Part shown: positions 11,350 to 44,072 of the stretch, piece by piece
How the letters are laid out: each line of letters opens with the position of its first letter
Numbering within the stretch: position 1 is the stretch's first letter
Assembly: GCA_965369815.1 (NCBI GenBank)
Contig: CBDUQS010000002.1
Location: 1-54,765, forward strand
Length of the DNA: 54,765 nucleotides
Source: an uncultured bacterium
GTDB taxonomy: Bacteria > Patescibacteriota > Gracilibacteria > UM-FILTER-43-11
Direction of reading: 5' to 3'
The notes under the pieces: generated by a model
Seen by the model: only the letters and a program-made list of their open reading frames with translations
Database searches by the model: none
Told to the model about the DNA's origin: nothing
Made by a program: the position numbers and the translations under genes

Positions 11350-11781
11350 ATGAAAATGAAAAAACCACTAAAAACAATCTTACAGTTCAGCGCCGTCATG
11401 GGATTCACCCTAGTACTGCTTTTTGTAATGGATTCGTCAGCATTAGCTCAATTCAGCCCACCAACGCTTTTACCTACAGAAGATGCAAATATTGGGGGTA
11501 GGGGCGATGTCTGCCAAGGATTGGCTACTATGATCAAAAGCGGAAAAATCGGAACTCGGAATCTTCCCTGCTTTGTAAAGTTCTTCACTCAAACGCTCAT
11601 TGGAATTGCAGGAAGCTTGGCAGTGGTTTTTGTGATGATCGGTGGCTATAAATATGTAATTCCTGGAGATGAGAAAAAAGATGAAGCGAAAAAAACAATC
11701 ACCTACGCCCTCATTGGCTTAGCAGTTTCCCTGCTAGCTTGGGTTATTATCGACCTTGTCCTTCAAATCACCACTGAATAG
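11350..11781 (+). CDS. TrbC/VirB2-like type IV secretion pilin (CPR-type T4SS pilin)
   Basis: 143 aa. Signal peptide ending ALAQ, a conserved Cys pair, then two TM helices flanking a charged loop (IAGSLAVVFVMIGGYKYVIPGDEKKDEAKKTITYALIGLAVSLLAWVII), which is the VirB2/TrbC topology. Confidence 0.6.
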   Translation: MKMKKPLKTILQFSAVMGFTLVLLFVMDSSALAQFSPPTLLPTEDANIGGRGDVCQGLATMIKSGKIGTRNLPCFVKFFTQTLIGIAGSLAVVFVMIGGYKYVIPGDEKKDEAKKTITYALIGLAVSLLAWVIIDLVLQITTE

Positions 11782-18204: not shown

Positions 18205-21195
18205 TTAGATCTCTTCATCAACAGGAATTGATGGAGTGTCTTCCAAAAGCTCTTCAATCGGTTCTTCAATTGTCTCTTCAGAAGGCTCTTCTTCAGCAGG
18301 CTCCTCAACAGGTGCCTCAACCGGTTTTGGATTTCCTTTAATATTTGCAAATTCCTCAAAAGATAATGAGTTAACAACAGAATCAACTCCATGAATCGAA
18401 ATATTAGCCAAGCGATTACTATTAACCTCAAAAGTAAAATTCAAAATTTTATCGCCTCGTTCGTAATCTTCAATTTTAACCCTCTCAGCAGGAAGTGGCG
18501 TAATAATATTTACCTCAGTAAGCTCAATCCCCTGCTTCGTCAAATAGTCAATCAGCCATAATTCAGATAAATAAGAAATATATTCTTTAACACCTTGGTT
18601 ATCAGCTACTAAAAGCTTGTGATCTGTTGAAATAAAGGTTTTGGAAGCACGATTAAAGGTGCCAGCAAATTCAATCGGCATAATGTCCAATCGAACTTTT
18701 TTAAATTCAACAATATTACGATCAGAATCAGCAAAGCGAATGTCTCGCTCGTCGATAACAAGGTTAAGGGCTACAAATTCTTTAACCGTGGAGCGAACTG
18801 CTTCAACCTCCTGTTCTTTGCCATACAAGGAAGTAAAAACAACATTAACCAAACGATCAATTGAGAGGGTAGAAGGTAAGCCAACATTCTGATCCTCTTT
18901 AAGAGAAATATCAGAAGCAATCTTATTCGATGTATTGTATTTAAAGGAAATTGATGTTTTCCTGTTGTCATCATCTTCAATAAACACATTGGAAACTTTA
19001 AATTCATTCAAGGTTGCTGTGTTTAAAATAGTCATTTGCTGATCACTTGAGATTAAAATCCCAAAACCTTCCAATTCCTTTATCGTCAACTGAATCGCAA
19101 GATCCTGAGCCGTCGCCTGAGAACGAGCCGCCTCTTCACTAGTATCTAAATTTAAGAAATCGACAAGGTCACCTGCATCTGGATCGGGAAGATGATCGAT
19201 CTTAATTGAAGCTTCAGGACTTTTAGCGATACGAACAAAATCATCAAGCGTAAAGCTTCCGCCAAGTGGATCATCATTCAGCACAATGTCATAAATTCCA
19301 TTGGTCGAATAATCGTACTGAGCCGAGAAAGAAACCAAAGTACCATCCTGAGCCCGATCCACGAATCGAGCGCTCTTGATTTCAAATGAAAAAGGATCTT
19401 CTGTATCAACAGCAATATCCTCTTCCAAAAGGGCAATACGAGCAACAGTAAATCGCTGAGAAACCTCATGCAATGTAGGATACAAAATCACATCATCCTG
19501 AGGCTCCTCTTCTTTAAGAATTTCTTCGAATCGTTCAGAAAGCGTCTTATCACGTTCCTGATTGGCCAAATAGTCTTTAAATTGAGCCTGCTCGGCTTCT
19601 TCTTCAGCAGCTGCTCGAAGTGACTGCTCAGCAAAGGCGATCCGATCCGCAAGAAGCGCTGCTTCTTGAATGAATAAGTCACGGGCTGCTGAGGTTTCTT
19701 TTTCTGATAAATTAAGCTGTGAATAGCTCGTTTTTAAGTAAGTTTTTGCCTCCGGGTAGCGAAGGGCAGCAATTAAATATTTGCTTACTTCAAGCCGCTC
19801 TAGGGCGATCTCAAACAAAGTTTCATCACCCTCCTCTGCATTGGCAAGACGGTAATCCCCTATTTTATCCAAAATAGTGAGTAGCTTTGTATCGATTCGA
19901 TCCGCATAAGAAAGAAGAATATTTTGATAAATGCGAACCTGTTGATCAAACTCATCTCGATGAGATTTTTTAAAGCCGGGCTTCCATTGCTCAACCCAGT
20001 GCTCAGTAAGCTCAATAGCCTTCTTATTATCCTCAGAACGAAGTAAATAATCCAAATCAGCCAAATAAGTTCTTAAAATCTCAGGGTTTTTATCTCGAGA
20101 TAATAAATATTGTCTCAAATACTCCTTTGTTAAATAAGCGGAACTTCCTTTGGGGACATTGTAAATTGAATAAAATTGAGATTCTAAAAGATTATTAAAT
20201 AATGGATCCCCAGTTAAGATCTCTTTTAGATCATCTAATTCCGCCAGTAAACTTTCGGCTTTTTCAGAATCATTGTCTTTATGAACACCTCCTAAAAGAT
20301 ATTGAAATTTCAACTCAGCTAACTGAAGTCGTTCCATACGCTTCTGAGAAGGGATAAGAGCTAATTTTTCACGAAACTCATGATACCGACTTCTAACTTC
20401 ATAAATACTTGTTGAATAAATAACATCATTGACACTCAATAAGCGAATGACATCGTTCTTCGCATTTCGCTGAACCCACTCCTCTTCAAAAATAGCAGGT
20501 GAAACAGGTCCCATTTTAAGTTCTTTTTTCATCTTAGTGTATTCCAAACGTGCGTATTCCGGAATAATTTGAGAATCAGCAAATACAATTTGATTTTTAA
20601 GAGGAATGACAAAGCGAGCCAACTCCTCACCGTCAGAGCCTTTTAAATTCAAATCCACGTTCCCAGTAATAGAAAAAACACGGTTGAGAGGCCGATTATA
20701 AGTGTAAGATCCAACAGAATGACTGAATTGAGCATCCCCCCTAGGGGTAGAAATAATAATCGGGTCAAAAGCATTTACCCAAACACTTCCTGATTCAAGC
20801 TGAAAAACAAAACGTGGGAAATGACGACTTAGAAAATGATTTTCTAAAAATCGAATCTCCGTATTCTGATCCAAACGAATCACATTATCCTCAATGCGAA
20901 TTTCTGCAAAGCTCTGATCACCCGTTTTAATATAAGAGTTGGTCAAAAGGACCTGGTCAGGCTGAGCCGATAGATAAGTAGAATCGTAAGGTGTCTTTAG
21001 AGAAACCTCCTGCCCTTCTGAAAACACAATACGAGGGGCTACTTCTCGAAAAGGACCCACTGACTGCTGAACAACAGCAAGGCTAAACCAAGCTGCATTC
21101 ACCAAGAGGAAAAGAAGGCTCAGAAACAATACCTTTTTTGAGAAGTGATAGAGAATACTCTGAGTCGAATTGTCGTTTTGATTTTCGTTTTCCAA
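18205..21195 (-). CDS. giant membrane-anchored envelope protein (996 aa), FecR-like N-terminal beta domain, acidic Pro/Glu tail
   Basis: TTG start. TM helix LFLSLLFLLVNAAWFSLAVV, then a FecR-like block (IKTGDQSFAEIRIEDNVIRLDQNTEIRF), a long helical region, and C-terminal PVEAPVEEPAEEEPSEE. Driven by promoter cassette copy b. Confidence 0.8.
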   Translation of the reverse strand: MENENQNDNSTQSILYHFSKKVLFLSLLFLLVNAAWFSLAVVQQSVGPFREVAPRIVFSEGQEVSLKTPYDSTYLSAQPDQVLLTNSYIKTGDQSFAEIRIEDNVIRLDQNTEIRFLENHFLSRHFPRFVFQLESGSVWVNAFDPIIISTPRGDAQFSHSVGSYTYNRPLNRVFSITGNVDLNLKGSDGEELARFVIPLKNQIVFADSQIIPEYARLEYTKMKKELKMGPVSPAIFEEEWVQRNAKNDVIRLLSVNDVIYSTSIYEVRSRYHEFREKLALIPSQKRMERLQLAELKFQYLLGGVHKDNDSEKAESLLAELDDLKEILTGDPLFNNLLESQFYSIYNVPKGSSAYLTKEYLRQYLLSRDKNPEILRTYLADLDYLLRSEDNKKAIELTEHWVEQWKPGFKKSHRDEFDQQVRIYQNILLSYADRIDTKLLTILDKIGDYRLANAEEGDETLFEIALERLEVSKYLIAALRYPEAKTYLKTSYSQLNLSEKETSAARDLFIQEAALLADRIAFAEQSLRAAAEEEAEQAQFKDYLANQERDKTLSERFEEILKEEEPQDDVILYPTLHEVSQRFTVARIALLEEDIAVDTEDPFSFEIKSARFVDRAQDGTLVSFSAQYDYSTNGIYDIVLNDDPLGGSFTLDDFVRIAKSPEASIKIDHLPDPDAGDLVDFLNLDTSEEAARSQATAQDLAIQLTIKELEGFGILISSDQQMTILNTATLNEFKVSNVFIEDDDNRKTSISFKYNTSNKIASDISLKEDQNVGLPSTLSIDRLVNVVFTSLYGKEQEVEAVRSTVKEFVALNLVIDERDIRFADSDRNIVEFKKVRLDIMPIEFAGTFNRASKTFISTDHKLLVADNQGVKEYISYLSELWLIDYLTKQGIELTEVNIITPLPAERVKIEDYERGDKILNFTFEVNSNRLANISIHGVDSVVNSLSFEEFANIKGNPKPVEAPVEEPAEEEPSEETIEEPIEELLEDTPSIPVDEEI

Positions 21196-22670: not shown

Positions 22671-22706
22671 GTATTGATTTTTAGAGAGAAATTTGGTATA
22701 ATAATA
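22671..22706 (+). promoter_or_regulatory. promoter cassette copy a: TTGATT-17-TATAAT with TGg extended -10
   Basis: GTATTGATTTTTAGAGAGAAATTTGGTATAATAATA. -35 at 22674-22679, -10 at 22697-22702, and ATG at 22725. Confidence 0.75.
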
Positions 22707-22724
22707 GGATTTAAATAAAAACAA

Positions 22725-23255
22725 ATGCCAGAAGAAAAAAACCAAGCAACAGAAATACAAGAAGACGCTTCCCATCCGGGAGCTCATCACAACAAGCTTC
22801 TCCTTACATGGAAAGCCCCTGAATTCATCAATCACCAGAGAAGTAATCGATGGTTTTGGATAGCAGGAATTCTTGTTCTTCTTCTTGTTCTATATGCGCT
22901 TTACACAAATTCTGCCACGATGGCGATCGTTTTTGTCGTTTTGGCTGGAGTGTACTACCTCACTCACAATCAGGAACCAAAAATAATCGATATCAAATTA
23001 ACTGAATTGGGGATTTACGTGGATCAAAAATTCCATCCATACAATCAAATCAATTCTTTTTGGGTGGTTTACCATCCCCCATTCGTTCATACGTTGAATT
23101 TAAGATTGGGAAACAAGAGTTACACAAAGGTAGCGATACAGCTAGACAATCAAAACCCTGTTGAAGTACGAGAAACACTTGCAAAAGAAATCCCAGAAAT
23201 TGAAGGTGAAGGAGAATCTTTAGGAGACATAATGACCCGATTACTACGACTATAA
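22725..23255 (+). CDS. hypothetical two-TM membrane protein with C-terminal beta-rich domain (176 aa), first gene of orphan operon
   Basis: WKAPEF...RWFWIAGILVLLLVLYALY and MAIVFVVLAGVYYL helices. The stop overlaps the next start (TAATG at 23253-23257). Confidence 0.7.
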   Translation: MPEEKNQATEIQEDASHPGAHHNKLLLTWKAPEFINHQRSNRWFWIAGILVLLLVLYALYTNSATMAIVFVVLAGVYYLTHNQEPKIIDIKLTELGIYVDQKFHPYNQINSFWVVYHPPFVHTLNLRLGNKSYTKVAIQLDNQNPVEVRETLAKEIPEIEGEGESLGDIMTRLLRL

Positions 23256-25681
23256 TGCTTTTACATCTTTTCGATCATCGGGAGCACAAACCAACCTTCC
23301 TTTTTGCAAAGCAGGAAGGGGCTGAAACCGCGACCATTTTTGAAGGCAAAGAGGCAGAGAAGAAAGTCATGGAATCTTTTTTCAATGAAGAGGAGCTTAA
23401 AGAATTAACAAAAAAAAGCCCTGAAGAGGTAAGGCAATTTGTAGATGAGAAATTTGAAGAAAGATTCGGAAAAGAGTCTTACGAAAATGAGCTTGAACAG
23501 CATTTTAAGTCATACAGAGTAGCTCCAATGGTAAAAGAACGGCTAATGAAAGACTCAATGGCGCGATACGAAGCTAACTACCGAAGTACACTCGCCCGTT
23601 TCTATCGTCATACAGAAAGTAAAATCAGTCATTTTGAAGATTTAATGGAAGAAACTCGATCTTCCACACGAGATGAGCTTAGTAAATTAAGCCAAGCGAT
23701 TGAAAACGTTCAAGCAGTCGAGTCATCCACTCCCGAATTAGAAAACGTAGTAAACCCTGTCGAAAAATTAACTTTTGGTGGAACTTGGGCTCATAAAATC
23801 CCACTTGTCGGACCTTTATTTGAACATACCGATATTCCGATTTTATCTCCAGTAATCACGCCAGCAGAGTACCGAGAATACCGAGAATTCCAAGGGGAAA
23901 CCACGGGGCAATTCATTAGTTTTACAGAGGCACTCAGTGATCAATTTCTAAATCCAGATCTAATGGAGGATCATTTAACTAAAGATGAGCTAGATGAATA
24001 CAAAACATTAGCTGGACACGACTGGTTCACTGACGGATTTAGTGATGGAATGGAGGATTACGTTGAAAAACAGCTTAAGGATATATTTGAAAATACAAAA
24101 GACGCTGACGAGCTTAAAAAACAACTCACCCTGTTAAGAGGCTATATTGTTGAAAGATACACGACCTATGCCAATGAAGATGGGTTAATTGATTTACATG
24201 AACTCAGAAGGCTCAATAGAGAAGCAAGTCGCTTTGTTGATTTAACAAGTGAACTAAATAAAACCGAAGACCCAGAAGAAATCATTCGATTGCTGGAAGC
24301 TAATCAATTTATGAAGCCCGAAGTATTAGAAAGAGCAACAGGAGTCATGCTCGACCAAATGCTGAAAGACTCAATCCGAAATGGAACCGAAACCCATTTA
24401 ATTCAATTTGTTGAAGAGAAAACGGGCGAAAGTGATTTAAGCTTCCGCCAAGCAAGCAATAAGCTAGATGAATTAATGAAAGACCGCGTTGAAAGCGGTG
24501 CCGTTGCACTCACCGAGCTAATCACCGAACTGAATGAAGCTGTGAATGGAGAAAGGGTAGAGTTTCTGAAAATTCCTGAAACCGATTCAAAGGCAATGAA
24601 AGGGTTAGCACTCAAACAACGTGACTTAATTTTAAGTCGTCGGATTGAACCAAAGAACGTCGATGATCGGCTTGTGGCCGAATTCATGAGTACAGGGTTT
24701 CTCGGAAGAAAAACAATGCTCGATAATAAAACGGAAAGAGCTGCTCTCTTTCAGGCTATTCAAAGCATTAAAGAGCATTACCCAAGAATCTACAACGAGC
24801 GACACCAAAGTTCAATCTCTGAAACAACAGATATAAGATACAGTGATGACCCCTCTGATCCAAGTGGACACGACAAAATTGCACGACTACTAGCAATGAC
24901 CGCCTTAGCTAAAGAGGCAGGATGGATTGTTGGGAATTTAAGCTCATCGGAGGATTTCAAAGAAGAAAACCTTTCAGTGCAATTAGAAGAGACTGAAATC
25001 GATGAAACTCCCCCAAAAATTTATTCAGAATTTCGAGATCGACTAAAAATGCATTCTACACGCTATCGAACTCAAGCTTCTCGATCGGGATTCAATGGAC
25101 GGGACATAGCACTCAATGGCCTTAAGGTACTAGGCGGAATAACACTCTTAATTAATTACATGAATTTCCGAAAAGAGTATGGAACCATTGAGGGGGCAAT
25201 CAAATTAACTACCAATCCATGGGCTGCCCTTGCAGCTGGAACCGTTTACGGCGCTCATAAAGTTCAAGATCGACCTGAAGTTGCAGGATACCTCTTTGAA
25301 AGCGAAGGAAGTCAAGAACGAATTGCAACCACATTAGGGCTCGACAGTCTTTCTAAGAAGATAGGAAGGCATCCTCTACTTTCTTTTATAGGAAATGCAA
25401 ATGAATTCAAAGCAATGTCCTCTCTCATGAAAGATCCACAAGAAGGGGTGAATATTATTGGACAATTAAATAAAAAAGCAGTGGAAAGAGATGGGAAAAA
25501 TCCCGTGATCACAAAAGATGACCTTAAGGAGGCGTTGAATACCGCAACTGGAAGTGATGCTGTATGGAGTCAGTTACCCAACTTCTCAAACGACCGAACT
25601 CGATACCTATTTTATTCAAAATTCCTAACCAAGGCCAGAAACGTCCGTCAGCTCAAGCACAACTGCGAAACCTGGATTTAA
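23255..25681 (+). CDS. hypothetical 808-aa acidic helical protein with two C-proximal hydrophobic helices
   Basis: Translationally coupled to the upstream gene. Hydrophobic LKVLGGITLLINYMNF and WAALAAGTVYGA lie near residues ~620-670. No recognisable domain. Confidence 0.75.
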   Translation: MLLHLFDHREHKPTFLFAKQEGAETATIFEGKEAEKKVMESFFNEEELKELTKKSPEEVRQFVDEKFEERFGKESYENELEQHFKSYRVAPMVKERLMKDSMARYEANYRSTLARFYRHTESKISHFEDLMEETRSSTRDELSKLSQAIENVQAVESSTPELENVVNPVEKLTFGGTWAHKIPLVGPLFEHTDIPILSPVITPAEYREYREFQGETTGQFISFTEALSDQFLNPDLMEDHLTKDELDEYKTLAGHDWFTDGFSDGMEDYVEKQLKDIFENTKDADELKKQLTLLRGYIVERYTTYANEDGLIDLHELRRLNREASRFVDLTSELNKTEDPEEIIRLLEANQFMKPEVLERATGVMLDQMLKDSIRNGTETHLIQFVEEKTGESDLSFRQASNKLDELMKDRVESGAVALTELITELNEAVNGERVEFLKIPETDSKAMKGLALKQRDLILSRRIEPKNVDDRLVAEFMSTGFLGRKTMLDNKTERAALFQAIQSIKEHYPRIYNERHQSSISETTDIRYSDDPSDPSGHDKIARLLAMTALAKEAGWIVGNLSSSEDFKEENLSVQLEETEIDETPPKIYSEFRDRLKMHSTRYRTQASRSGFNGRDIALNGLKVLGGITLLINYMNFRKEYGTIEGAIKLTTNPWAALAAGTVYGAHKVQDRPEVAGYLFESEGSQERIATTLGLDSLSKKIGRHPLLSFIGNANEFKAMSSLMKDPQEGVNIIGQLNKKAVERDGKNPVITKDDLKEALNTATGSDAVWSQLPNFSNDRTRYLFYSKFLTKARNVRQLKHNCETWI

Positions 25682-25687
25682 TTCAAT

Positions 25688-25715
25688 ATTCTTAATCCTT
25701 AATCCTTAGTCCTTA
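25688..25715 (+). repeat. heptamer array ATTCTTA ATCCTTA ATCCTTA GTCCTTA
   Basis: Fills the spacer between the 808-aa gene stop and the ATG at 25721. Confidence 0.85.
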
Positions 25716-25720
25716 CCTAA

Positions 25721-25981
25721 ATGATCAACGAAATTCCAAAACCACAAGAAGGTCAAGAAAATCTCTCCACGAGAGAAAGGCAAGGAATGGTAAAAAATCG
25801 AGTGAATCAACAGGGAGAAAAAATGACTCCCCGATTAGCTGGACAAAAAAGAGTACAACCAAACGAGCAACAAACAAACACTCCTTCCAATAAAGCTAAA
25901 AAAGGCATGGGCAAATGGGCCATTGCTGCCGTATCTGGCAGTGCTGCCGCCGGAGGACTTGTAACCTATTTAATAAGTTAA
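25721..25981 (+). CDS. hypothetical 86-aa basic peptide with C-terminal small-residue TM tail
   Basis: Gln/Lys/Asn-rich N-terminal part, then WAIAAVSGSAAAGGLVTYLIS. Lies 4 nt upstream of the next gene. Confidence 0.55.
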   Translation: MINEIPKPQEGQENLSTRERQGMVKNRVNQQGEKMTPRLAGQKRVQPNEQQTNTPSNKAKKGMGKWAIAAVSGSAAAGGLVTYLIS

Positions 25982-25985
25982 AAAT

Positions 25986-28358
25986 ATGAATCGCATCAAA
26001 CAAACAATAAAAGGATTATTTTTAACCGCATTGATTGTGGGGGCCTTTGGTTTAAACTTAAACGCTCAGTGGTCAAGTGATGCAGGTAAAACTACAAGCG
26101 TAAGCACTCATATTGAAAACTTACTAACTACCAATACTTTTGCTGCAACGGCACAGGAAATACAAAGAGAAATGGACGAAATAAAAACAAGGGGAGAACA
26201 GGGAAATGCACGCGCGGGAGATGCGGAAAAGCTAGAGACACTAGGTCAAGACCTAGAGGCGGCAGAAGAGCTAGGTGATCAAGTAGAATACAAAATATCT
26301 GAAAAACTCAAAACAGCAATCTTAGGAGCCTCCGATCTTATTAATAAAGTTTTCGACCCCGCCATATTCACCATCACCAACTCTATAGGAGGTCTACTGG
26401 GGAACGACTATATTTTTGCGGGAGCTATGGGGAAAATGCTCCATGAAATATGGGTGGTAAGTCGAAATATCGTCAATATTGTATTCGTTCTCATCCTCTT
26501 ATTTTTAGCCCTACGTCATATTTTTGGATCAGAAGAAAGCAGTGAATTAAAAAAAGCATTGCCCAAGTTTGTCATTATGCTGATCGCCATCAACTTTTCA
26601 TGGCTAGGAGCACGATTAGTTCTAGATGCCGCCAATGTCGCCACCAATGTCGCCTTTGCAATTCCAGCGGGAACAAAGGGGATAGTGGAACTGGAAGCAG
26701 AAGAATGTAACCTTAATAACAACGGAGGGGCAGAAGGAAGCTGTGGGCTTGTTTCCCTATACAAACCCTTTGATGCAACTGACGACAGCAGTATCATAAT
26801 AAAAACCGAAGAGGACAAGGAAGCAAAATGCAACCTAAAAGCTTTATACGACGACGCCTATGGAGTCGACGCAGATGGGGAAAAGATAGAAGGGTATACC
26901 CCCCCTGGCAAAGAGAATGCATATTATCAAACAACCACCTACTGCTGGGAAAACAGAAAACTTGATAAATTCAGTAAAAGCAATGCGGCTTATCATTTAA
27001 CCTATAGCATGGCAAAGGTACAAAACTTGCCCAAAGCCACTGCAGTAGGAACCACGGCTGAAACCTTTGCCAAAATTGGGATTGGAACCTTGTTTTCGCT
27101 CTTCTTTCAAATTGTTTATTTAATTGCATTTGCATCTTTATTCATAGTCCTCATCTTCCGTGTAGCCGCCTTGTGGTTCATGGTAGCCTTTTCACCCTTT
27201 TTAGTTCTTCTGCTCTATCTATCGCAAGACAGTCAACTAAGTGGGATAGGGAAAAGTATTGAGAGTAAATTCAGCATTGCACAATTCGCCAATTGGGCAT
27301 TCGCCCCTGCAAAAGTTGGCCTAGTGTGGTCAGTTGGATTTCTTATGATAACAACGGGGCAAATATCGACAAAAGAGGTTGCAGTAGCCCTAAATAAGAC
27401 GGGGGATATCACCTCATACGGTTTTTCTGTCAGCTCTCTTTATATGGGAATGGAAAGCATTCAAGAGCTAATGTGGCTCTTAATGACCATTGGAATTATA
27501 TGGGTAGGAACCTTTGCCGTATTCAGTGATCTTGCCGTGGTGAACACCATAACCGATAAGATAAAAAATTACGGAAATGACTTTGCGAAAGAGGTGGCAA
27601 TGTCACCAACATGGGCACCAATCATGCCAATGATTGATCCAAAAACAGGAGGATTAAAACTTGGTTCTTACGGTAAAACAGCAGGTCCTGTTGGAATGCT
27701 TCAAAAAGCGAAAGCCTATCATACAGGTACAGACGATAGGAAATTCGAGAATGCCCACGAAAAACTCAAGACAGCAAAAGATCGAAACCCAAGTGACTTT
27801 GCTAAAATCAGTACTGGAAGTGATGAAGATAGATTTAAAGCCTTTAGTCGACTATCAGGATTAAGCGCTGCAGAAATCAGTAGTGATCCTAGAAAGGTAA
27901 AGAGCATGTTAAAAGATCTAGGAGTCGACGAGAGACACTCTCAGCGAATTATAGACCATGCTGACAAGAACAAAGGGAAACTTGATAGTCCAACTGACAC
28001 AAAGGTGACAGCAGCGGCTTCGTTCTCTGGTACAGACATGAAAACTGCGGTTGCTAGCGCATTAAGTGGAGATCCAAGTTTGAAAAAAATGGCTGAAAAA
28101 GCAGGGGTAAGCCATGAACAAGTGGAGCAACATCTAAGTGCAAAAGATAGAGATTTCAAAAACCTATCAAGAAATGATGTTGAAGAAGCAATAAGACTTG
28201 GTGAGGAAGATGTTATTAAGGATAAAAAGAGGGGCGATGTTAGTGACGCACCAACAACAACATCAGATCCAGCAGCGGATGCAGCAGCGGCAAGGGCAGC
28301 AGCAGATGCAGCAGAAGGAAGAGCGCCAAGAGAAGGACAACCGCCACCGCAAGTGTAA
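25986..28358 (+). CDS. polytopic membrane protein (790 aa), VirB6/TrbL-like topology, long charged C-terminal tail
   Basis: Signal/TM LFLTALIVGAFGLNLNAQ. Helices IVNIVFVLILLFLAL, FVIMLIAINFSWLGARLVL, IGTLFSLFFQIVYLIAFASLFIVLIF, WFMVAFSPFLVLLLYL, VGLVWSVGFLMITTG and LMWLLMTIGIIWVGTFAVF. A 4-Cys loop and an Ala/Pro-rich end. Confidence 0.75.
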   Translation: MNRIKQTIKGLFLTALIVGAFGLNLNAQWSSDAGKTTSVSTHIENLLTTNTFAATAQEIQREMDEIKTRGEQGNARAGDAEKLETLGQDLEAAEELGDQVEYKISEKLKTAILGASDLINKVFDPAIFTITNSIGGLLGNDYIFAGAMGKMLHEIWVVSRNIVNIVFVLILLFLALRHIFGSEESSELKKALPKFVIMLIAINFSWLGARLVLDAANVATNVAFAIPAGTKGIVELEAEECNLNNNGGAEGSCGLVSLYKPFDATDDSSIIIKTEEDKEAKCNLKALYDDAYGVDADGEKIEGYTPPGKENAYYQTTTYCWENRKLDKFSKSNAAYHLTYSMAKVQNLPKATAVGTTAETFAKIGIGTLFSLFFQIVYLIAFASLFIVLIFRVAALWFMVAFSPFLVLLLYLSQDSQLSGIGKSIESKFSIAQFANWAFAPAKVGLVWSVGFLMITTGQISTKEVAVALNKTGDITSYGFSVSSLYMGMESIQELMWLLMTIGIIWVGTFAVFSDLAVVNTITDKIKNYGNDFAKEVAMSPTWAPIMPMIDPKTGGLKLGSYGKTAGPVGMLQKAKAYHTGTDDRKFENAHEKLKTAKDRNPSDFAKISTGSDEDRFKAFSRLSGLSAAEISSDPRKVKSMLKDLGVDERHSQRIIDHADKNKGKLDSPTDTKVTAAASFSGTDMKTAVASALSGDPSLKKMAEKAGVSHEQVEQHLSAKDRDFKNLSRNDVEEAIRLGEEDVIKDKKRGDVSDAPTTTSDPAADAAAARAAADAAEGRAPREGQPPPQV

Positions 28359-28391
28359 GAAAAACTAGTAACACTATAAATTCCTAAAAAC

Positions 28392-28427
28392 AAAACCCCC
28401 GATCCTCATTTGAGAATCGGGGGTTTT
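28392..28427. terminator. strong bidirectional rho-independent terminator
   Basis: AAAACCCCCGAT (28392-28403) and ATCGGGGGTTTT (28416-28427) form a perfect 12-bp GC-cored stem flanked by A/T runs. It lies between convergent genes. Confidence 0.85.
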
Positions 28428-28434
28428 GATAAAA

Positions 28435-28466
28435 TTGCATCGCAGGTTAGAAAACCTTCTCTGCAA
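28435..28466. repeat. CAGGTTAGAAAACCT-family hairpin element, single copy
   Basis: ttgcatcgcaggttagaaaaccttctctgcaa, with nested stems TTGCA/TGCAA and AGGTT/AACCT. Lies in the 3' region of the ATPase gene. Confidence 0.6.
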
Positions 28467-28521
28467 TTAAAAAATATCCAACACCCATGTCGGAACGAAA
28501 ACTTTCCAGTCTACGAGACGA

Positions 28522-31059
28522 CTACACCTTTTTATCCTCACCACTCGGTTCATCCGTAATCTTCGTTCCTACACGCCGATAGATCTCCCGTTCTACAAAC
28601 TGACGCTCGCGAGAATACTTAAGACGTGAGAGCTGACGGAAGGCTTCAGCAGCCTCAACATCCCCTTTCGACGGATCGTAAACGGTCGACATAGAGAAAG
28701 CCCGTGAAGTAGCGTTATCGATGTTCAACTTAATATAAGCTTGGTAATTCGCAATATTCACCAAATCCTGTTCACTGAACACCGGTGCGAACTCTTTCGC
28801 CATATATTCCGCATCCTGAGCACCAATTTTAAAACACATCATTGAGCCCACATTACCGAATACGGCATCGCGAATGGTGGTGTCTTCATGAGTCCCCTTT
28901 CCACCTCCGCTCATTTTCGTGATCTGAGAAATATACTGATGTGCGATGGTTAAGCTTAATCGGTATTTTCGAGCTTCTGAAAGAATTGAAGCAAAGCTTT
29001 CCGTCACAAAATTCTGGAATTCATCCACGTACATATAAAAGTCCTTTCGCTCCTCCTCCGGCATATCCACACGGCTCATGGCAGACATCTGAAGCTTAGA
29101 GACCATAACCATACCCAGTAGCTGGGCGTTTAAGTCTCCCAACTTACCTTTCGAAAGATTACAAAGTAGTATCTTCCCGGAATCCATTACTTCGCGGAAG
29201 TCGAAACCAGATTTGGTTTGCCCAATAATATTACGAATTTGAGCATTGGTAATGAAAGGGCCAAACTTCGCACTAAAATACGGAATCATCTCCTGTTTTT
29301 CACGAGCGCCTGTCGAAGCCATTTCTTTTTCCCAGAACGATCTCACCACTGGATTTTTAACCTTGGCCACCTTATAGCGCTGCCAACTTTCATCGGTAAA
29401 TAAACGAGGTAAGTCAATCAGCGTTGCACCCTCTTCGTCATCTTCCATAAGTGTTAAGCAACCATTGCGAAAGTAATGCTGAAGACGCGGACCCATAATC
29501 TCTTCACCAAATAATTTAATAAAAATCGCCAACGCCTCCTGAGACATAAACTCTTTCTCCTCTTTTGAATGAGCTTCAAGAATATTCAAGCCCATTGGTC
29601 GCTCTAAATCTCCTGGATCAAAAATAATAACGTCATCCGCACGGCTTCGCGGAATGAATGGCATAACCCCTTCTACTAAATCTCCATGAGGATCGATTAA
29701 ACAAACTCCTTCTTTATCTGCCAAATCTTGATTAATCATTCCTTTTAGAATAGTAGATTTACCAGTACCCGACTTTCCAATAATGTAGAAATGACGACGA
29801 CGATCATCTCGCTTCACATGAACCTTCTTGGATTCACCCCGATAACTATTATTTCCCAAAAATAGACCTTCTTTTGGTAAATTGTTTGGAGCAGGAGCGA
29901 TTTTGAACTCCTGCCACTTAATCACCGGCGATCGGTTGTATTTAATATTTGGGAAATGAAAAACCGAAGCCACCTCTTCAGAACACAAAATCATTGCCCC
30001 TGGGTGGAATAAGCGCTGAAGCCATCCTTTTTTAATATCTCGCAATATAAAACCACGAAGCAAGGCCTTCATTGAAAAATATTTTGTTTTAGCAAAGCCA
30101 TTATTATTGGGGGCGTGGTACTGAACAAAGGAACTCATCACATCCCCAACAATCTGCTTGCTTCGATAGCTGGTTTTCGCAGAAGTAACAATACGAATGA
30201 TGGTTTCAAAACCAACTTTCACATTCTTGGTTTCCATTAACTTCACCTGCTCGTCCATTAAAGGAGTCGTGCGAGTAGTCGCGTTATCGGCCCCCATATT
30301 TTCAGTGAATTTTTCCTGATCCGCACCTTGAACCAAAATGCGAATTAAGGTTCCAATCCAAGCAAAAACGTTCATTTTAGAAAGAAAACTTTTTTCTTTC
30401 TTTCCTTGAAAAAGATCCCCTGCCTTCGTTCTTCCTTTTTCCTGCCAACCGTCCCCTACAGGACGAAGCATAACTTGAACCGCCACCCCTTCATCCACAT
30501 CAATCTTAGAAAGCGCATTGGCGATATTATTAAAAGGGTCTGAACCAAGGAATTGATAAGTTCGAATGGGATACATATTAGGCTTTGCCAAACGCACGTA
30601 CATTCCCGACGTCTTATAACCTTCACGAAAAATATTGTAATCCTCCACCTGCTCGATAAACACATCTGAGTAAAAAGCCGTCACTTGTTTTTCGAACAGC
30701 GACTTTAAGTTCCGCGGAACCACCAAGAAGAATCGAAGCAACCCATCAAGAACAACATATTCACAAGAAAAGAAGTCCTGACCAGTTAATTTATTGATCA
30801 AATCCCCACAATGCATCGCATGAAGCCCTTCATAAAGGTGGGTCATGACATCATTCACCTCTTTAAATGATTTTCCGGATGAATACTGCTCACTTTCCCG
30901 CTCACGATCCTCCTTAGAATCTTTAATGGGAACGGATACTTGTAGAAACACCATATTCAGTGACCGCTCCAAGTTTTTCTTAGCTCGAATTCGCCACGCA
31001 ATCAAAAACCCAATCGCTGCCAAAACGCCGATAATGCCAAGTGTTTGTAAGAAAATCAT
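28522..31059 (-). CDS. TM-anchored FtsK/HerA-superfamily P-loop ATPase (VirB4/VirD4/TraG-like T4SS-type)
   Basis: 845 aa. N-terminal TM LGIIGVLAAIGFLIAW and a ~400-aa unknown domain. Walker A HFYIIGKSGTGKST then LIDPHGDL, Walker B FYMYVDEFQNF, ARKYRLSLTIAHQYISQI. Confidence 0.8.
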   Translation of the reverse strand: MIFLQTLGIIGVLAAIGFLIAWRIRAKKNLERSLNMVFLQVSVPIKDSKEDRERESEQYSSGKSFKEVNDVMTHLYEGLHAMHCGDLINKLTGQDFFSCEYVVLDGLLRFFLVVPRNLKSLFEKQVTAFYSDVFIEQVEDYNIFREGYKTSGMYVRLAKPNMYPIRTYQFLGSDPFNNIANALSKIDVDEGVAVQVMLRPVGDGWQEKGRTKAGDLFQGKKEKSFLSKMNVFAWIGTLIRILVQGADQEKFTENMGADNATTRTTPLMDEQVKLMETKNVKVGFETIIRIVTSAKTSYRSKQIVGDVMSSFVQYHAPNNNGFAKTKYFSMKALLRGFILRDIKKGWLQRLFHPGAMILCSEEVASVFHFPNIKYNRSPVIKWQEFKIAPAPNNLPKEGLFLGNNSYRGESKKVHVKRDDRRRHFYIIGKSGTGKSTILKGMINQDLADKEGVCLIDPHGDLVEGVMPFIPRSRADDVIIFDPGDLERPMGLNILEAHSKEEKEFMSQEALAIFIKLFGEEIMGPRLQHYFRNGCLTLMEDDEEGATLIDLPRLFTDESWQRYKVAKVKNPVVRSFWEKEMASTGAREKQEMIPYFSAKFGPFITNAQIRNIIGQTKSGFDFREVMDSGKILLCNLSKGKLGDLNAQLLGMVMVSKLQMSAMSRVDMPEEERKDFYMYVDEFQNFVTESFASILSEARKYRLSLTIAHQYISQITKMSGGGKGTHEDTTIRDAVFGNVGSMMCFKIGAQDAEYMAKEFAPVFSEQDLVNIANYQAYIKLNIDNATSRAFSMSTVYDPSKGDVEAAEAFRQLSRLKYSRERQFVEREIYRRVGTKITDEPSGEDKKV

Positions 31060-31099
31060 TTTTTATTTTGAAGAGAGTGGACTCACAGTCAACAAACAG

Positions 31100-31127
31100 T
31101 ATATACCACTCTAACTGACACTTACAA
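31100..31127 (-). promoter_or_regulatory. promoter of the ATPase gene (TTGTAA-16-TATATA, TGg extended -10)
   Basis: The minus strand reads TTGTAAGTGTCAGTTAGAGTGGTATATA. It shares the TTAGAG...TGGTATA elements of the cassette, with a shorter spacer between them. Confidence 0.5.
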
Positions 31128-31202: not shown

Positions 31203-31817
31203 TTAGATATCTAACTCTTCCTCCAAATCCGCATCCTTCTTCTCTTTCACATCATCAACTTCCTCACCAAATTTTGGCAATGCCGCTTCAATCGCTCCCC
31301 AATCAGATTCTTCATTCATTGGAATAATAAGGGTGACCTCGTCCCCCACTTCCGCACGAAAGTAAGTGACTGATGCTAAAAGAACGCTATAAGCTTTGTC
31401 ATTTGCTAAAACCTGATAACGACCATCATTATAAACCAAAGGACCAATAATGGTTTTCCGTTCAACAGGACCAATTTGTTTATAAAGGAACTTTCCTTCT
31501 TCAGTAACCGTTAATTTAAGAACATCTCCTGGAATCAATTTAGATTTACTGGCGTAATTAGCAGGAACAGGGTAAACACTTCCTTTTTTATCCACCATAT
31601 TCTGACCATTAAACACACCCTCAATAACTTTTCCACCACTCTCACCTGGACTCTCTTTAGTAAAGGTAGCTGCCTTTTCTTTATAGGTACCCGTTTCGAT
31701 ACTTTCACCTTCATGAAGCCCCATAGAATCCGCCAAAAGCTGATTAGCAACCTTAAGAGCAGATTCTGCATTATCCATGAGTTCTTTTATGCGAACGAGT
31801 TTTTTTAAATCAGTCAT
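31203..31817 (-). CDS. hypothetical protein (204 aa), two beta-rich repeats, acidic tail
   Basis: N-terminal helix, then VIEGVFNGQNMVDKKGSVYPVPANYASKSKLIPGDVL and a second similar beta segment. C-terminal EEVDDVKEKKDADLEEELDI. Confidence 0.65.
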   Translation of the reverse strand: MTDLKKLVRIKELMDNAESALKVANQLLADSMGLHEGESIETGTYKEKAATFTKESPGESGGKVIEGVFNGQNMVDKKGSVYPVPANYASKSKLIPGDVLKLTVTEEGKFLYKQIGPVERKTIIGPLVYNDGRYQVLANDKAYSVLLASVTYFRAEVGDEVTLIIPMNEESDWGAIEAALPKFGEEVDDVKEKKDADLEEELDI

Positions 31818-43361: not shown

Positions 43362-43363
43362 AA

Positions 43364-43445
43364 CCGAATAGTGGACCGAATAGTGGACCAAATTGTTGTA
43401 TGGCAAACCACTATACGGTGCACAATACGGCCCACAAGCCGAAAT
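43364..43445 (+). repeat. long imperfect palindromic element, copy B
   Basis: ccgaatagtggaccgaatagtggaccaaattgttgtatggcaaaccactatacggtgcacaatacggcccacaagccgaaat, located between purC and purE. Confidence 0.8.
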
Positions 43446-43446
43446 A

Positions 43447-43467
43447 TATAATTCATAATTCATAATT
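43447..43467 (+). repeat. heptamer array YATAATT x3
   Basis: tataatt cataatt cataatt, ending 4 nt before the purE ATG. The same unit occurs twice at 11794-11807, before the ATG at 11818. Confidence 0.8.
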
Positions 43468-43471
43468 AAAT

Positions 43472-43921: not shown

Positions 43922-43927
43922 AATTTA

Positions 43928-44029
43928 GGAATTTGCATTTTTGATTTTGCAATCAATTTAGCATTTTCAAACTTAACAATTAAATGAGGAAATCTTGAAA
44001 TGAAAAATTAAATACCAAATGCAAATTCC
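43928..44029. repeat. 11-bp perfect inverted repeat bracketing the purE-purB spacer, with flanking opposed heptamer arrays
   Basis: GGAATTTGCAT (43928-43938) pairs with ATGCAAATTCC (44019-44029). gaatttg cattttt gattttg lies on the left and caaatt(c) caaaata caaaata on the right. Confidence 0.6.
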
Positions 44030-44072
44030 AAAATACAAAATAAATCGTATTATTAAATAAAGTAAAACAAGT

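What the first reader, a model, noticed from the sequence alone, without database searches (positions are those of the whole stretch)
22671..31127. Orphan membrane-machine locus: coupled 4-gene operon convergent with a TM-anchored VirB4/VirD4/HerA-like ATPase
The plus-strand genes are tightly coupled. 22725-23255 encodes a 2-TM protein. A TAATG overlap leads into 23255-25681, an 808-aa acidic helical protein with two C-proximal hydrophobic helices. 25721-25981 encodes an 86-aa basic peptide with a small-residue TM tail. After a 4-nt gap, 25986-28358 encodes a 790-aa protein with a signal peptide, at least 6 TM helices, a 4-Cys loop and a ~260-aa charged tail. A strong bidirectional terminator (28392-28427) separates this operon from the convergent 845-aa ATPase. 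That ATPase has one TM helix, a ~400-aa unknown domain, Walker A GKSGTGKST followed by DPHGDL, Walker B YVDEFQNF, and RKYRLSLTIAHQ. A polytopic VirB6/TrbL-like protein plus a hexameric-type ATPase is the core logic of type IV secretion or conjugation, and a VirB2-like pilin lies 11 kb away. However, no VirB8/9/10, relaxase or PilB/PilC partners are visible. Three of the five proteins have no family I can recognise. This is a candidate reduced or novel DNA/protein translocation or cell-cell attachment apparatus.
Basis: partly seen in the sequence, partly recalled or inferred. Interest (0 to 1): 0.78.

Follow-up and report, generated by a model that had tools for sequence, protein, structure and literature searches.

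The report
Conserved unknown membrane operon beside T4SS coupling ATPase
A Peregrinibacteria (candidate phyla radiation) chromosome carries a tightly coupled four-gene membrane-protein operon of unknown function, which recurs with the same gene order in many related uncultured bacteria, and it happens to lie next to a conjugation-type coupling ATPase that is already known to be widespread in this group.

Summary
The "one orphan machine" reading holds only in part.

- **The ATPase (845 aa):** it is not an orphan. It belongs to the DUF8128 + TrwB/VirD4-type coupling-protein (T4CP) family. This family is 47-97% identical across Gracilibacteria-class genomes and is already reported as near-universal in Patescibacteria. 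Plasmids of Bacillota and haloarchaea carry relatives that match along most of its length.
- **The four-gene operon:** it is the local form of a much wider conserved operon: a 2-TM protein with a weak, sub-threshold resemblance to PH domains, a helical protein with a hydrophobic hairpin, a tail-anchored protein, and a polytopic ~800-aa protein. Outside the Peregrinibacteria clade a 1000-1470-aa soluble protein follows. There the operon usually sits between rpsF-ssb-rpsR and thrS-recF-prsW.
- **Known families:** no operon protein matches any family above threshold. It has no NTPase.
- **Linkage:** operon and ATPase are neighbours only in one clade. That is 18 of 19 close loci, 0 of 51 distant ATPase loci and 0 of 57 operon loci elsewhere.
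- **VirB6/VirB3 kinship:** only faint signals support it.

My best reading is two separate units. The operon may be the missing, divergent membrane core of this class's dispersed T4SS (about 0.4), or a new envelope complex (about 0.35).

The parts
22674..22702 (+). Promoter-like site (TTGATT, 17 nt, TATAAT with upstream TG) in front of the operon
   Evidence: It is the best consensus match in the region, 10 of 12. It is a consensus match only; function was not shown.
22725..23255 (+). p176: small membrane protein with a two-helix hydrophobic hairpin (about residues 43-80) and a ~95-aa C-terminal soluble domain. It is the first gene of the conserved operon.
   Evidence: ORF. The family alignment A3 has 51% mean column identity. 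A homologue opens the operon in 29 of 30 distant loci. Only sub-threshold Pfam hits appear: DUF6232 in 7 of 13 members, VirB3 in 5 of 13 (best E 0.0025), and bPH_7.
23255..25681 (+). p808: acidic, mostly helical, soluble-looking protein. It has a conserved C-proximal GGFNGRD motif followed by a hydrophobic hairpin. It is the clade-specific long form of the ~500-aa second operon protein ('P500').
   Evidence: ORF and TAATG overlap. There is no Pfam, NCBIfam or PDB sequence match. It is homologous to the P500 family (hhalign 96.3%, E 2e-9). It has no Walker A motif and no similarity to VirB4.
25721..25981 (+). p86: short basic protein with a C-terminal Gly/Ala/Ser-rich membrane anchor. It is the short form of the tail-anchored third operon protein.
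   Evidence: ORF; pI 10.3. In related loci the gene just before the polytopic protein is 80-616 aa and in most loci ends in a similar basic stretch plus Gly/Ala-rich hydrophobic tail. In L084 it is fused to the polytopic protein.
25986..28358 (+). p790: polytopic membrane protein. It has a signal-like N-terminus, several predicted TM helices (5 here by a strict hydropathy threshold, 7-10 in homologues by a laxer one), a Cys-containing beta-rich loop at about residues 240-325, and a helical charged C-terminal domain. It is the anchor gene of the operon.
   Evidence: ORF. AF2 model has pLDDT 69, with the TM core and residues 590-660 at 85-91. The family has 844 representatives at E <= 1e-30. No Pfam hit appears in 55 different members. 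Foldseek against PDB and BFVD finds nothing significant. There is no match in 72,556 plasmids.
28391..28428 (.). Bidirectional intrinsic-terminator-like hairpin between the convergent operon and the ATPase gene
   Evidence: The stem has 17 pairs (9 G-C), with a flanking A-run and T-run.
28522..31059 (-). T4SS coupling-protein-type ATPase. It has an N-terminal TM helix, a DUF8128 domain (to about residue 400) and a TrwB/VirD4-type P-loop domain (about residues 410-800).
   Evidence: Pfam PF10412 scores 30.1 bits (cut-off 20.5) and PF01935 29.3 bits (cut-off 23.2). Precomputed PF26449 (DUF8128) is present on all homologues. Other support: TrwB in PDB at E 8e-5; hhalign to TrwB 94% against 8% or less to single VirB4 seeds and 39% to an alignment of four; relatives on conjugative-type plasmids that cover up to ~80% of its length.
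31203..31817 (-). p204: acidic 204-aa protein directly upstream of the ATPase and co-directional with it. It is conserved (61-94% identity) only in the close clade. It may be co-transcribed, and its role is unknown.
   Evidence: ORF; no Pfam hit. It is present upstream of the ATPase in 12 close-clade loci.

Best explanation
The region holds two separately inherited units that are neighbours only in one Peregrinibacteria clade.

**Unit 1: the operon (22725-28358, + strand).** It is the local version of an operon conserved in many relatives, including at least one lineage that uses genetic code 25. Its order is:
1. a small 2-TM protein with a soluble C-terminal domain that has only weak, sub-threshold PH-domain-like Pfam hits (p176);
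2. a soluble helical protein with a hydrophobic hairpin (p808, called P500 elsewhere);
3. a tail-anchored protein (p86);
4. a polytopic ~800-aa protein with a Cys-containing outward loop and a helical cytoplasmic tail (p790).

Outside this clade a 1000-1470-aa soluble protein follows.

From the translational coupling, the fixed gene order and the predicted membrane anchors on all four proteins, I infer that they assemble into one cytoplasmic-membrane complex built around p790. The operon encodes no NTPase. Any transport through the complex would therefore need the proton motive force or an ATPase encoded elsewhere.

My most likely single mechanism (about 0.4) is that this is the highly divergent membrane-channel platform of the T4SS of this bacterial class. 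In that reading p790 plays the VirB6-type role and p176 a VirB3-type role. The recognisable T4SS parts of this class are known to be scattered, and its VirB6 is reported as undetectable.

**Unit 2: the ATPase (28522-31059, - strand).** It is a member of the DUF8128 + VirD4/TrwB coupling-protein family. By family precedent it would be a membrane-anchored hexameric motor that feeds DNA or protein substrates to a T4SS channel.

**Shown versus inferred.** Shown: gene structure, conservation, the pattern of synteny and the ATPase family assignment. Inferred: complex formation, topology and any T4SS role of the operon.
For: **Operon conservation**
- The order P176 - P500/P808 - tail-anchored protein - P790 holds in 18 Peregrinibacteria-clade loci and in about 60 further loci.
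- Where the flanks allow, P176 is present in 29 of 30 loci, P500 in 30 of 30 and the large downstream protein in 30 of 30.
- p808 is homologous to P500 (hhalign 96.3%).
- p176 is homologous to the distant first gene (HMM E 6e-33).
- No NTPase motif occurs in any operon family.

**Independence of the two units**
- 0 of 51 distant ATPase loci hold the operon. Of these, 36 have at least 3 kb downstream.
- 0 of 57 distant operon loci hold a T4CP or VirB4 within 10 kb.
- In other clades the ATPase neighbours are mostly housekeeping genes: rsmH-ftsL, dnaE-aspS and rpsB-tsf.

**ATPase family**.

**Hints for the T4SS-platform reading**
- hhalign of the P790 family against TcpH/Orf15 gives 32% over the most conserved TM motif. 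A reversed control gives 4.6%.
- One family member carries a precomputed weak TrbL_3 hit.
- VirB3 sub-threshold hits occur in 5 of 13 p176 members.
- The operon is adjacent to the T4CP in one clade.
- The literature reports VirB6 as absent and VirB3/TrsD as unlinked to virB4 in Gracilibacteria (PMC12102498).
- The accepted VirB6 of Southlakia (SEML1_0013) is likewise a very large polytopic protein with no Pfam hit and a helical C-terminal domain. It was found only by structure, at TM-score 0.50 (PMC10633639 Table S2).
Against: **Against a T4SS role**
- No TrbL/VirB6 Pfam hit appears in 55 family members, even at E <= 10 for ten of them.
- Foldseek against PDB places TrwI/VirB6 only at rank 18 (E 7.8, target TM 0.31).
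- P176 against VirB3 seeds gives 0.5%. P808, P500 and the large downstream proteins against VirB4 seeds give 0.3% or less.
- The family has no relatives on 72,556 plasmids.
- No virB4 or T4CP ATPase lies within 10 kb of the operon in 57 loci. Pilins were not specifically searched for there.
- P500, the tail-anchored protein and the large soluble proteins have no T4SS counterpart.

**Against strict independence**
- The convergent operon-ATPase arrangement survives in 18 of 19 close loci even where the genes on the other side of the ATPase differ.

**Limits**
- Complex formation was not tested.
- The AF2 model of p790 is of moderate quality (pLDDT 69). The ATPase model failed (pLDDT 41).
Confidence: 0.55

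Rival explanations
1. One reading: the four operon proteins and the convergent ATPase form one reduced translocation or attachment apparatus. p790 is the VirB6/TrbL-like channel and the ATPase is its dedicated motor.
For: - The convergent arrangement with a shared terminator is kept in 18 of 19 close-clade loci, including loci where the genes on the other side of the ATPase differ.
- The ATPase is a genuine T4CP-type motor.
- The operon lacks an NTPase of its own.
- In this clade the ATPase occupies the position that the large soluble downstream protein holds elsewhere.
Against: - Adjacency is confined to one clade, in which prfA (and, in part of the clade, pfkB and MFS) also keeps its place. 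That is ordinary synteny.
- It fails in L075, where the ATPase is 72% identical.
- It fails in all 51 more distant ATPase loci and in all 57 distant operon loci.
- The genes are convergent, not co-transcribed.
- The ATPase is far more conserved than the operon proteins: 75-85% against 23-47% identity in the same genomes. That pattern does not suggest co-evolving partners.
Confidence: 0.15
2. The operon encodes a previously undescribed envelope complex unrelated to T4SS. One possibility is a platform for taking up host-derived material such as lipids or macromolecules. Another is a cell-surface or division function particular to these reduced epibiotic bacteria.
For: - None of the four to six operon proteins matches any Pfam, NCBIfam or PDB family.
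- Fold search against PDB and viral structures was run only for p790 and found nothing significant.
- The operon sits in a core-genome context: rpsF-ssb-rpsR, thrS, recF, prsW, ATP synthase and pur genes.
- No VirB4/T4CP ATPase lies within 10 kb in 57 loci, and none of the recurrent flanking families annotated is a T4SS gene.
- Several conserved partners have no T4SS analogue.
- From the literature: these bacteria must obtain lipids and other material from hosts by unknown routes (bioRxiv 10.64898/2026.06.21.733656).
Against: - Faint TrbL/VirB6 and VirB3 signals exist.
- The general build of p790 resembles Gram-positive VirB6-like proteins and SEML1_0013.
- There is no positive evidence for any specific alternative function.
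Confidence: 0.35
3. The DUF8128-T4CP ATPase has been taken over for a core chromosomal job, such as DNA translocation during division or DNA uptake, rather than T4SS coupling. It has nothing to do with the neighbouring operon.
For: - Its conservation is unusually high for a T4SS part: 47-97% identity across the 80 Gracilibacteria-class genome loci, and 4894 homologues at E <= 1e-5.
- It is always chromosomal and among housekeeping genes.
- In one clade it directly follows rsmH-ftsL and is followed by a metallo-beta-lactamase-fold protein that I read as ComEC-like; this was not confirmed with a family search.
- No relaxase was found among the window ORFs scanned.
- The literature notes that most Patescibacteria T4CP homologues lie far from virB4, that the Southlakia copy is not essential for epibiotic growth, and that exaptation is possible (PMC12102498).
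Against: - It keeps most of the architecture of bona fide plasmid coupling proteins that sit next to a relaxase and VirB4.
- The FtsK_SpoIIIE Pfam match is below threshold: 13 bits against a 24-bit cut-off.
- No functional data exist.
Confidence: 0.25

Closest known systems
Patescibacteria chromosomal T4SS (Southlakia epibionticum SEML1_0006-0019, Wang et al. 2023, PMC10633639; survey by Quinonero-Coronel et al. 2025, PMC12102498)
   Same: - It is chromosomal, lacks a relaxase, and belongs to a monoderm-type lineage.
- VirD4-type T4CP homologues occur in about 96% of genomes and mostly lie far from virB4.
- PF18895 pilins are present; the window has one at 11350-11781.
- Its VirB6 (SEML1_0013) is a very large polytopic protein with no Pfam hit and a helical C-terminal domain, like p790 in general build.
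   Different: - The window has no VirB4, PrgI, TrsD, VirB8-like gene, cell-wall hydrolase or pilin array next to the operon.
- The operon's other members (P500/p808, the tail-anchored protein and the large soluble protein) are not described T4SS parts.
- Homology of p790 to SEML1_0013 was not tested because the sequence was not at hand.
Gram-positive (MPF-FATA/FA) conjugation modules: Tn916 Orf17-Orf16-Orf15 and pCW3 TcpE-TcpF-TcpG-TcpH
   Same: - The order and sizes run in parallel: a small 2-TM protein, then an ~800-aa protein, then a ~730-830-aa polytopic protein with a cytoplasmic tail.
- hhalign of the P790 family against TcpH/Orf15 reaches 32% over the conserved TM motif.
   Different: - The middle protein here is not an ATPase: it has no Walker A motif and scores 0.3% or less against VirB4.
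- P176 against VirB3-like seeds scores 0.5%.
- No peptidoglycan hydrolase or VirB8-like gene is present.
- The similarity to TcpH is below significance.
Plasmid coupling proteins with a DUF8128 N-terminal domain (for example the 883-aa 'DUF87 domain-containing protein' of Shouchella clausii plasmid NZ_CP012476, and haloarchaeal 'TraM recognition' / VirD4 proteins)
   Same: - tblastn matches cover residues from about 94-116 onward, so they include part of the DUF8128 region as well as the P-loop domain. The N-terminal TM helix lies outside the matched stretch and was not compared.
- The Walker A and B motifs and the T4CP signature are shared.
   Different: - The plasmid copy is followed by a replication-relaxation (relaxase-type) gene and a block of conjugal-transfer genes with an 837-aa ATP-binding protein that I read as VirB4.
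- The window copy is chromosomal. It sits between a 204-aa unknown protein and the convergent operon, with no relaxase or VirB4 among the ORFs scanned.

Membership tests
T4SS coupling protein (VirD4/TraD/TrwB, Pfam PF10412/PF02534/PF12696) - for the 845-aa ATPase | P-loop NTPase domain of the TrwB/VirD4 type with Walker A, Walker B and the conserved R-K...Q motif | tested here: met
   PF10412 scores 30.1 bits against a 20.5 cut-off, over residues 415-719. TrwB in the PDB matches at E 7.7e-5. hhalign to TrwB gives 94%. The motifs lie at 428, 677 and 697. tblastn reaches annotated T4CPs at up to 36% identity, E 9e-66.
T4SS coupling protein (VirD4/TraD/TrwB) - for the 845-aa ATPase | N-terminal membrane anchor | tested here: met
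   A hydrophobic helix spans residues 2-20 (hydropathy 2.41). This is one helix rather than the two that are usual for the family.
T4SS coupling protein (VirD4/TraD/TrwB) - for the 845-aa ATPase | Genetic association with a relaxase and/or the T4SS channel genes | tested here: not met
   No relaxase or VirB4 appears among the 20 flanking window ORFs scanned. ATPase neighbours in 80 loci are mostly housekeeping genes. Plasmid homologues do have the association.
VirB4 (PF03135 CagE_TrbE_VirB) - for the 845-aa ATPase | VirB4-type N-terminal and C-terminal domains | tested here: not met
   There is no PF03135 hit. NCBIfam VirB4-type models match only locally, at E 4e-5 to 6e-5 and far below their cut-offs. 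hhalign to single VirB4 seeds gives 8% or less, and 39% to a four-seed alignment.
FtsK/SpoIIIE (PF01580) - for the 845-aa ATPase | FtsK-type motor domain above the family threshold | tested here: not met
   PF01580 gives E 0.071 and 13 bits against a 24-bit cut-off, over the P-loop only. hhalign to the FtsK-like TcpA gives 64%, over the Walker A region only.
TrbL/VirB6 (PF04610, TrbL_2/3/4) - for p790 | Sequence match to a TrbL/VirB6 family model | tested here: not met
   No TrbL-type hit appears in 27 + 29 family members (55 different proteins) at E <= 0.1 or 0.01. None appears in ten members at E <= 10. One member (P0298) carries a precomputed weak PF19590 hit that my scan did not reproduce.
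TrbL/VirB6 - for p790 | Profile or structural similarity to characterised VirB6-type proteins (TrwI, PrgH, TcpH, Tn916 Orf15) | tested here: inconclusive
   hhalign to a TcpH/Orf15 alignment gives 32% (E 5e-4, 93 columns). The reversed control gives 4.6%. Against single seeds the best is TcpH at 18%, and unrelated membrane controls give 1.1% or less. Foldseek places TrwI at E 7.8 with target TM 0.31.
TrbL/VirB6 - for p790 | Polytopic topology with a large outward loop and a cytoplasmic C-terminus | tested here: met
   This rests on prediction only. The N-terminus is signal-like; a strict hydropathy threshold finds 5 hydrophobic segments here, and a laxer one finds 7-10 in homologues. A beta-rich loop holds 4 Cys at about residues 240-325. 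A helical charged tail follows.
TrbL/VirB6 - for p790 | Encoded with VirB4 and other channel genes | tested here: not met
   No VirB4-like ATPase lies within 10 kb in 57 operon loci. This is a weak test for this class, whose T4SS genes are reported as dispersed (PMC12102498).
VirB3/PrgI/TcpE - for p176 | Match to a VirB3-type model, and position directly before VirB4 | tested here: not met
   PF05101 hits are sub-threshold only: 5 of 13 members, best E 0.0025, 14.3 bits for the window protein against a 23.9 cut-off. hhalign to four VirB3-like seeds gives 0.5%. The next gene is not an ATPase.
Secondary or ABC solute transporters - for p790 | Fold match to a known transporter family | tested here: not met
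   Foldseek against PDB gives no match with E < 1. The transporter and GPCR rows are chance-level, at probability 0.06 or less.

The most novel reading that the evidence does not exclude
The operon (2-TM small protein, hairpin-anchored helical protein, tail-anchored protein, polytopic ~800-aa protein, and usually one or two very large soluble proteins) is a previously undescribed envelope machine. On this reading it is unrelated to any known secretion system and conserved across the Gracilibacteria-class lineages, possibly more widely in Patescibacteria. It would serve a core need of the epibiotic lifestyle, such as acquiring host material or building the contact site.
Probability: 0.35. Interest if true: 0.8.

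Novelty: new variant of a known kind. Interest (0 to 1): 0.55.

Why it matters
**What is missing from the known system.** Patescibacteria depend on host cells, and in the one species tested genetically (Southlakia epibionticum) the unusual chromosomal T4SS is essential for epibiotic growth. Yet the membrane channel subunit (VirB6) cannot be found by sequence in most of them. It is reported as absent from the whole Gracilibacteria class.

**What this operon could be.** It is a conserved operon in a core-genome setting, built around a VirB6-sized polytopic protein. That makes it either the missing, extremely divergent membrane core of that system or an entirely new envelope complex of these bacteria.

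**What the result gives.**
- It defines four to six co-inherited protein families with no annotation.
- It gives a testable set of partners for structure prediction and pull-downs, and for genetics if tools become available in the cultivated members of this class.
- It shows that the neighbouring coupling-type ATPase should not be assumed to belong to the operon.

Tried and rejected
**Family and sequence searches**
- Pfam and NCBIfam scans of all five proteins and of family alignments gave nothing above cut-off for the four operon proteins.
- Profile searches of the p790 and p808 families against PDB sequences returned only low-complexity noise.
- tblastn of p790 and of a distant family member against 72,556 plasmids found no match.
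- The word-index homologue search for p808 returned only one relative. I built the family from fetched loci instead.

**Structure**
- The AF2 model of p790 was searched with Foldseek against PDB and BFVD. No match reached E <= 0.001. The best viral hit, Bacillus phage G Gp153 (E 0.05, target TM 0.62), was not followed up.
- The AF2 model of the ATPase from a 12-sequence alignment failed (pLDDT 41). I did not use it for fold search.

**Profile comparisons (hhalign)**
- p808, P500, the large downstream protein and the ~840-aa protein against VirB4 seeds: rejected at 0.3% or less.
- p176 against VirB3-like seeds: rejected.
- The 996-aa protein at 18205-21195 as a displaced copy of the large downstream protein: rejected at 0.1%. 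No homologue of that large protein occurs in the window or in the 80 ATPase loci.

**Other attempts**
- I tried to build a diverse VirB6-like target profile from plasmids. TcpH relatives are almost all near-identical, so only four sequences were usable.
- The supplement of the T4SS survey was searched for the relevant genomes. The stored file is truncated and lacks them.
- Literature searches for DUF8128 or for this operon found nothing.
- Organism names for the wider p790 family could not be obtained.

Full report
**1. The observation**

The fine detail also holds:
- the TAATG stop/start overlap at 23255 and the 4-nt gap before 25986;
- the acidic 808-aa protein (pI 5.2) and the basic 86-aa protein (pI 10.3) with a small-residue hydrophobic tail;
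- four cysteines in the 790-aa protein;
- the four ATPase motifs at residues 428, 456, 677 and 697.

The hairpin at 28391-28428 has 17 pairs with an A-run and a T-run on its flanks. It is the strongest terminator-like site in the region. A good promoter-like site lies at 22674-22702.

The window is a chromosomal piece of a Candidatus Peregrinibacteria genome (GTDB class Gracilibacteria, phylum Patescibacteria). Named homologues carry that label. The flanking genes are housekeeping:
- prfA, gyrB, secF and a class II aminoacyl-tRNA synthetase gene;
- a PfkB kinase, an MFS transporter and prmC;
- purC, purE and purB.

A PF18895 T4SS pilin gene is indeed present at 11350-11781 (E 5e-12). It is separated from the locus by those housekeeping genes.

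**2. The ATPase**

Pfam places residues 415-719 in TrwB_AAD_bind (30.1 bits, cut-off 20.5) and also finds DUF87 (29.3 bits). The FtsK_SpoIIIE match is sub-threshold. Further evidence points the same way:
- The best NCBIfam models are VirD4/TraD types.
- The best PDB sequence is TrwB.
- hhalign gives 94% to TrwB but 8% or less to single VirB4 seeds, and 39% to an alignment of four VirB4 seeds.

Every homologue carries precomputed PF26449 (DUF8128) on the N-terminal ~400 residues.

The family is very conserved. Identity is 72-97% within the close clade and 47-62% in Peribacteria and Gracilibacteria relatives, with 4894 homologues at E <= 1e-5.

tblastn against plasmids finds 664 records. The matches start at about residue 94-116, so they include part of the DUF8128 region. 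They fall on proteins annotated as DUF87, TraM-recognition or VirD4 in Bacillus, Shouchella, Streptomyces and haloarchaeal plasmids. In a Shouchella clausii plasmid the homologue is followed directly by a replication-relaxation gene. A little further on lie conjugal-transfer genes and an 837-aa ATP-binding protein that I take to be VirB4.

The protein is therefore a genuine T4CP-type ATPase of the monoderm and archaeal kind. This family is already described. Quinonero-Coronel et al. (PMC12102498) report 5,713 VirD4-type homologues in 2,918 of 3,035 Patescibacteria genomes. Only 148 of these lie near virB4, and the authors raise possible exaptation.

**3. Is the ATPase tied to the operon?**

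I fetched 80 genome loci around ATPase homologues. I searched them with tblastn, jackhmmer and, later, broad family HMMs.
- The operon lies convergent to the ATPase in 18 loci, all from the close clade. L021 is truncated and holds only part of the p790 homologue.
- L075 (72% identity) lacks it and has ordinary genes there instead.
- None of the 51 more distant loci has it. Of these, 36 have at least 3 kb downstream and 44 have at least 3 kb upstream.

In the close clade prfA also keeps its place, and in part of the clade pfkB and the MFS gene do too. That is what ordinary synteny looks like.

In other clades the ATPase sits in different, mostly housekeeping settings:
- after rsmH-ftsL and before a metallo-beta-lactamase-fold protein that I read as ComEC-like;
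- after dnaE-aspS and before a 3D/PG-binding protein;
- after rpsB-tsf and a response regulator.

**4. The operon is widely conserved**

A profile of the p790 family was searched against 1.84 billion cluster representatives. It gave 12,227 hits at E <= 1e-3, 2,163 at E <= 1e-10 and 844 at E <= 1e-30.

I then examined contexts of distant members and 55 metagenome loci. They show one operon, most often arranged like this:

rpsF-ssb-rpsR, then P176, then P500, then a tail-anchored protein of 80-616 aa, then P790, then a 1000-1470-aa soluble protein, sometimes a further ~840-aa soluble protein, then thrS (opposite strand), recF and prsW.

Where the flanks allow, P176 is present in 29 of 30 loci, P500 in 30 of 30 and the large protein in 30 of 30.

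The window genes correspond to these one for one:
- p176 matches the distant first gene at HMM E 6e-33.
- p808 is homologous to P500 over its conserved C-terminal region (hhalign 96.3%, E 2e-9).
- p86 shares the basic stretch and Gly/Ala-rich C-terminal anchor that most of the proteins encoded just before P790 carry. In L084 that protein is fused to P790.

The Peregrinibacteria clade lacks the large downstream protein at this position. No homologue of it occurs elsewhere in the window or in the ATPase loci.

In the 57 operon loci outside that clade there is no T4CP or VirB4 within 10 kb. No operon family carries a conserved Walker A motif. The other flanking genes I annotated are purL, purH, purP, uppP, ATP synthase, uvrA and proB.

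One locus needs genetic code 25, so the family reaches code-25 lineages of this class. I could not name the organisms of the wider set. Breadth beyond the class Gracilibacteria is therefore not shown.

**5. What are the operon proteins?**

None of them, in any lineage sampled, matches a Pfam or NCBIfam family above threshold.
- **p176** gives only weak hits. These are to families I take to be membrane-anchored bacterial PH-domain proteins (DUF6232 in 7 of 13 members; bPH_7; DUF5673). VirB3 matches in 5 of 13 members, best E 0.0025.
- **p790.** The AF2 model (pLDDT 69, TM core 85-91) shows a signal-like helix, outward amphipathic helices, a helical membrane bundle, a beta-rich Cys loop and a well-predicted helical cytoplasmic domain.
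- **Fold search.** Foldseek finds nothing significant in PDB. TrwI/VirB6 is at rank 18 (E 7.8). Nothing significant appears in BFVD either.

Profile comparison with VirB6-type proteins taken from R388, pCF10, Tn916 and pCW3 gave at best 18% against single sequences. Against an alignment of TcpH, two relatives and Orf15 it gave 32% (E 5e-4). That match covers the most conserved membrane motif, and a reversed control gives 4.6%. One distant family member carries a precomputed weak TrbL_3 hit, which my own scan did not reproduce.

The other operon proteins show no similarity to VirB4. P176 shows none to VirB3-like seeds.

**6. Interpretation**

What is shown:
- There are two units with different evolutionary distributions.
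- The operon is a fixed, translationally coupled set in which all four window proteins (p176, p808, p86, p790) have predicted membrane anchors, and it has no motor of its own.
- The ATPase is a T4CP.

What is inferred:
- The operon proteins form one membrane complex around P790.

Several points favour a divergent T4SS membrane platform (about 0.4):
- the faint TrbL/VirB6 and VirB3 signals;
- the build of P790, which resembles Gram-positive VirB6-like proteins;
- the resemblance to the Southlakia VirB6 candidate SEML1_0013, which has at least 1085 aa, no Pfam hit, Foldseek TM 0.50 and a helical C-terminal domain;
- the published observation that VirB6 is undetectable, and that VirB3/TrsD are unlinked to virB4, in Gracilibacteria;
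- the T4CP adjacency in one clade.

Several points count against it:
- every direct homology test falls below significance;
- there are extra conserved partners with no T4SS counterpart;
- no VirB4 or T4CP gene lies nearby in 57 loci.

The main rival, at about 0.35, is an unrelated and so far undescribed envelope complex.

**7. Verdict**

- The ATPase is an already known kind.
- The operon is a real, conserved, unannotated membrane module. Its assignment to T4SS remains open.
- I found no paper describing the operon.

Noticed in passing
window 11350-11781 (+): A single T4SS pilin gene (PF18895, E 5e-12; TrbC/VirB2 at E 7e-4). It sits between a class II aminoacyl-tRNA synthetase gene and an AI-2E family transporter gene. 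It is not in a pilin array and not next to any other T4SS gene.
   Followed up: partly
window 18205-21195 (-): A 996-aa protein with an N-terminal membrane anchor, a weak FecR-like stretch and an acidic C-terminus. It has no family. It is conserved next to prfA in the Peregrinibacteria clade at 25-52% identity. It is not related to the large protein that follows the operon in other lineages.
   Followed up: partly
window 31203-31817 (-): A 204-aa acidic protein with no family, directly upstream of the ATPase and co-directional with it. It is strikingly conserved in the close clade (61-94% identity) but absent next to the ATPase in other clades.
   Followed up: partly
L022-L025 and L029-L034 (ATPase about 60% identical): In this clade the coupling-type ATPase directly follows rsmH and a small protein I read as FtsL-like. 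That is the start of the division/cell-wall gene cluster. In four of these loci (L025, L032-L034) a convergent metallo-beta-lactamase-fold protein that I read as ComEC-like follows. This hints at a division or DNA-uptake link for the ATPase.
   Followed up: no
window 38844-40301 (-); L036-L044: A 485-aa protein with PG_binding_1 repeats and a sub-threshold 3D-domain hit. In the clade where the ATPase is about 54% identical, its homologue lies immediately downstream of the ATPase.
   Followed up: no
window 34293-36914 (-): An 873-aa likely surface protein with fn3 and teneurin-type EGF domains and a sub-threshold Big_1 hit. Its position is conserved in the close clade. It may be an adhesin.
   Followed up: no
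window 22700-22724, 25696-25720, 25961-25985, 31060-31084: The 25 nt before the start codons of the operon genes and the ATPase gene are A/T-rich, with no clear Shine-Dalgarno motif.
   Followed up: no
window 42387-45413 (+); L093, L094, L142, L147: Purine-synthesis genes occur here and next to the operon in related genomes: purC, purE and purB in the window; purL, purH and purP elsewhere. This is notable for a phylum usually described as lacking nucleotide synthesis.
   Followed up: no
p790 model (window 25986-28358) against BFVD: The best viral structural match is Gp153 of Bacillus phage G (E 0.05, Foldseek probability 1.00, target TM 0.62, 319 aa). Its function is unknown.
   Followed up: no
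L084 2233-6219: In this relative the tail-anchored protein and the polytopic protein are fused into one 1328-aa product. This supports a physical association of the two in the unfused operons.
   Followed up: partly
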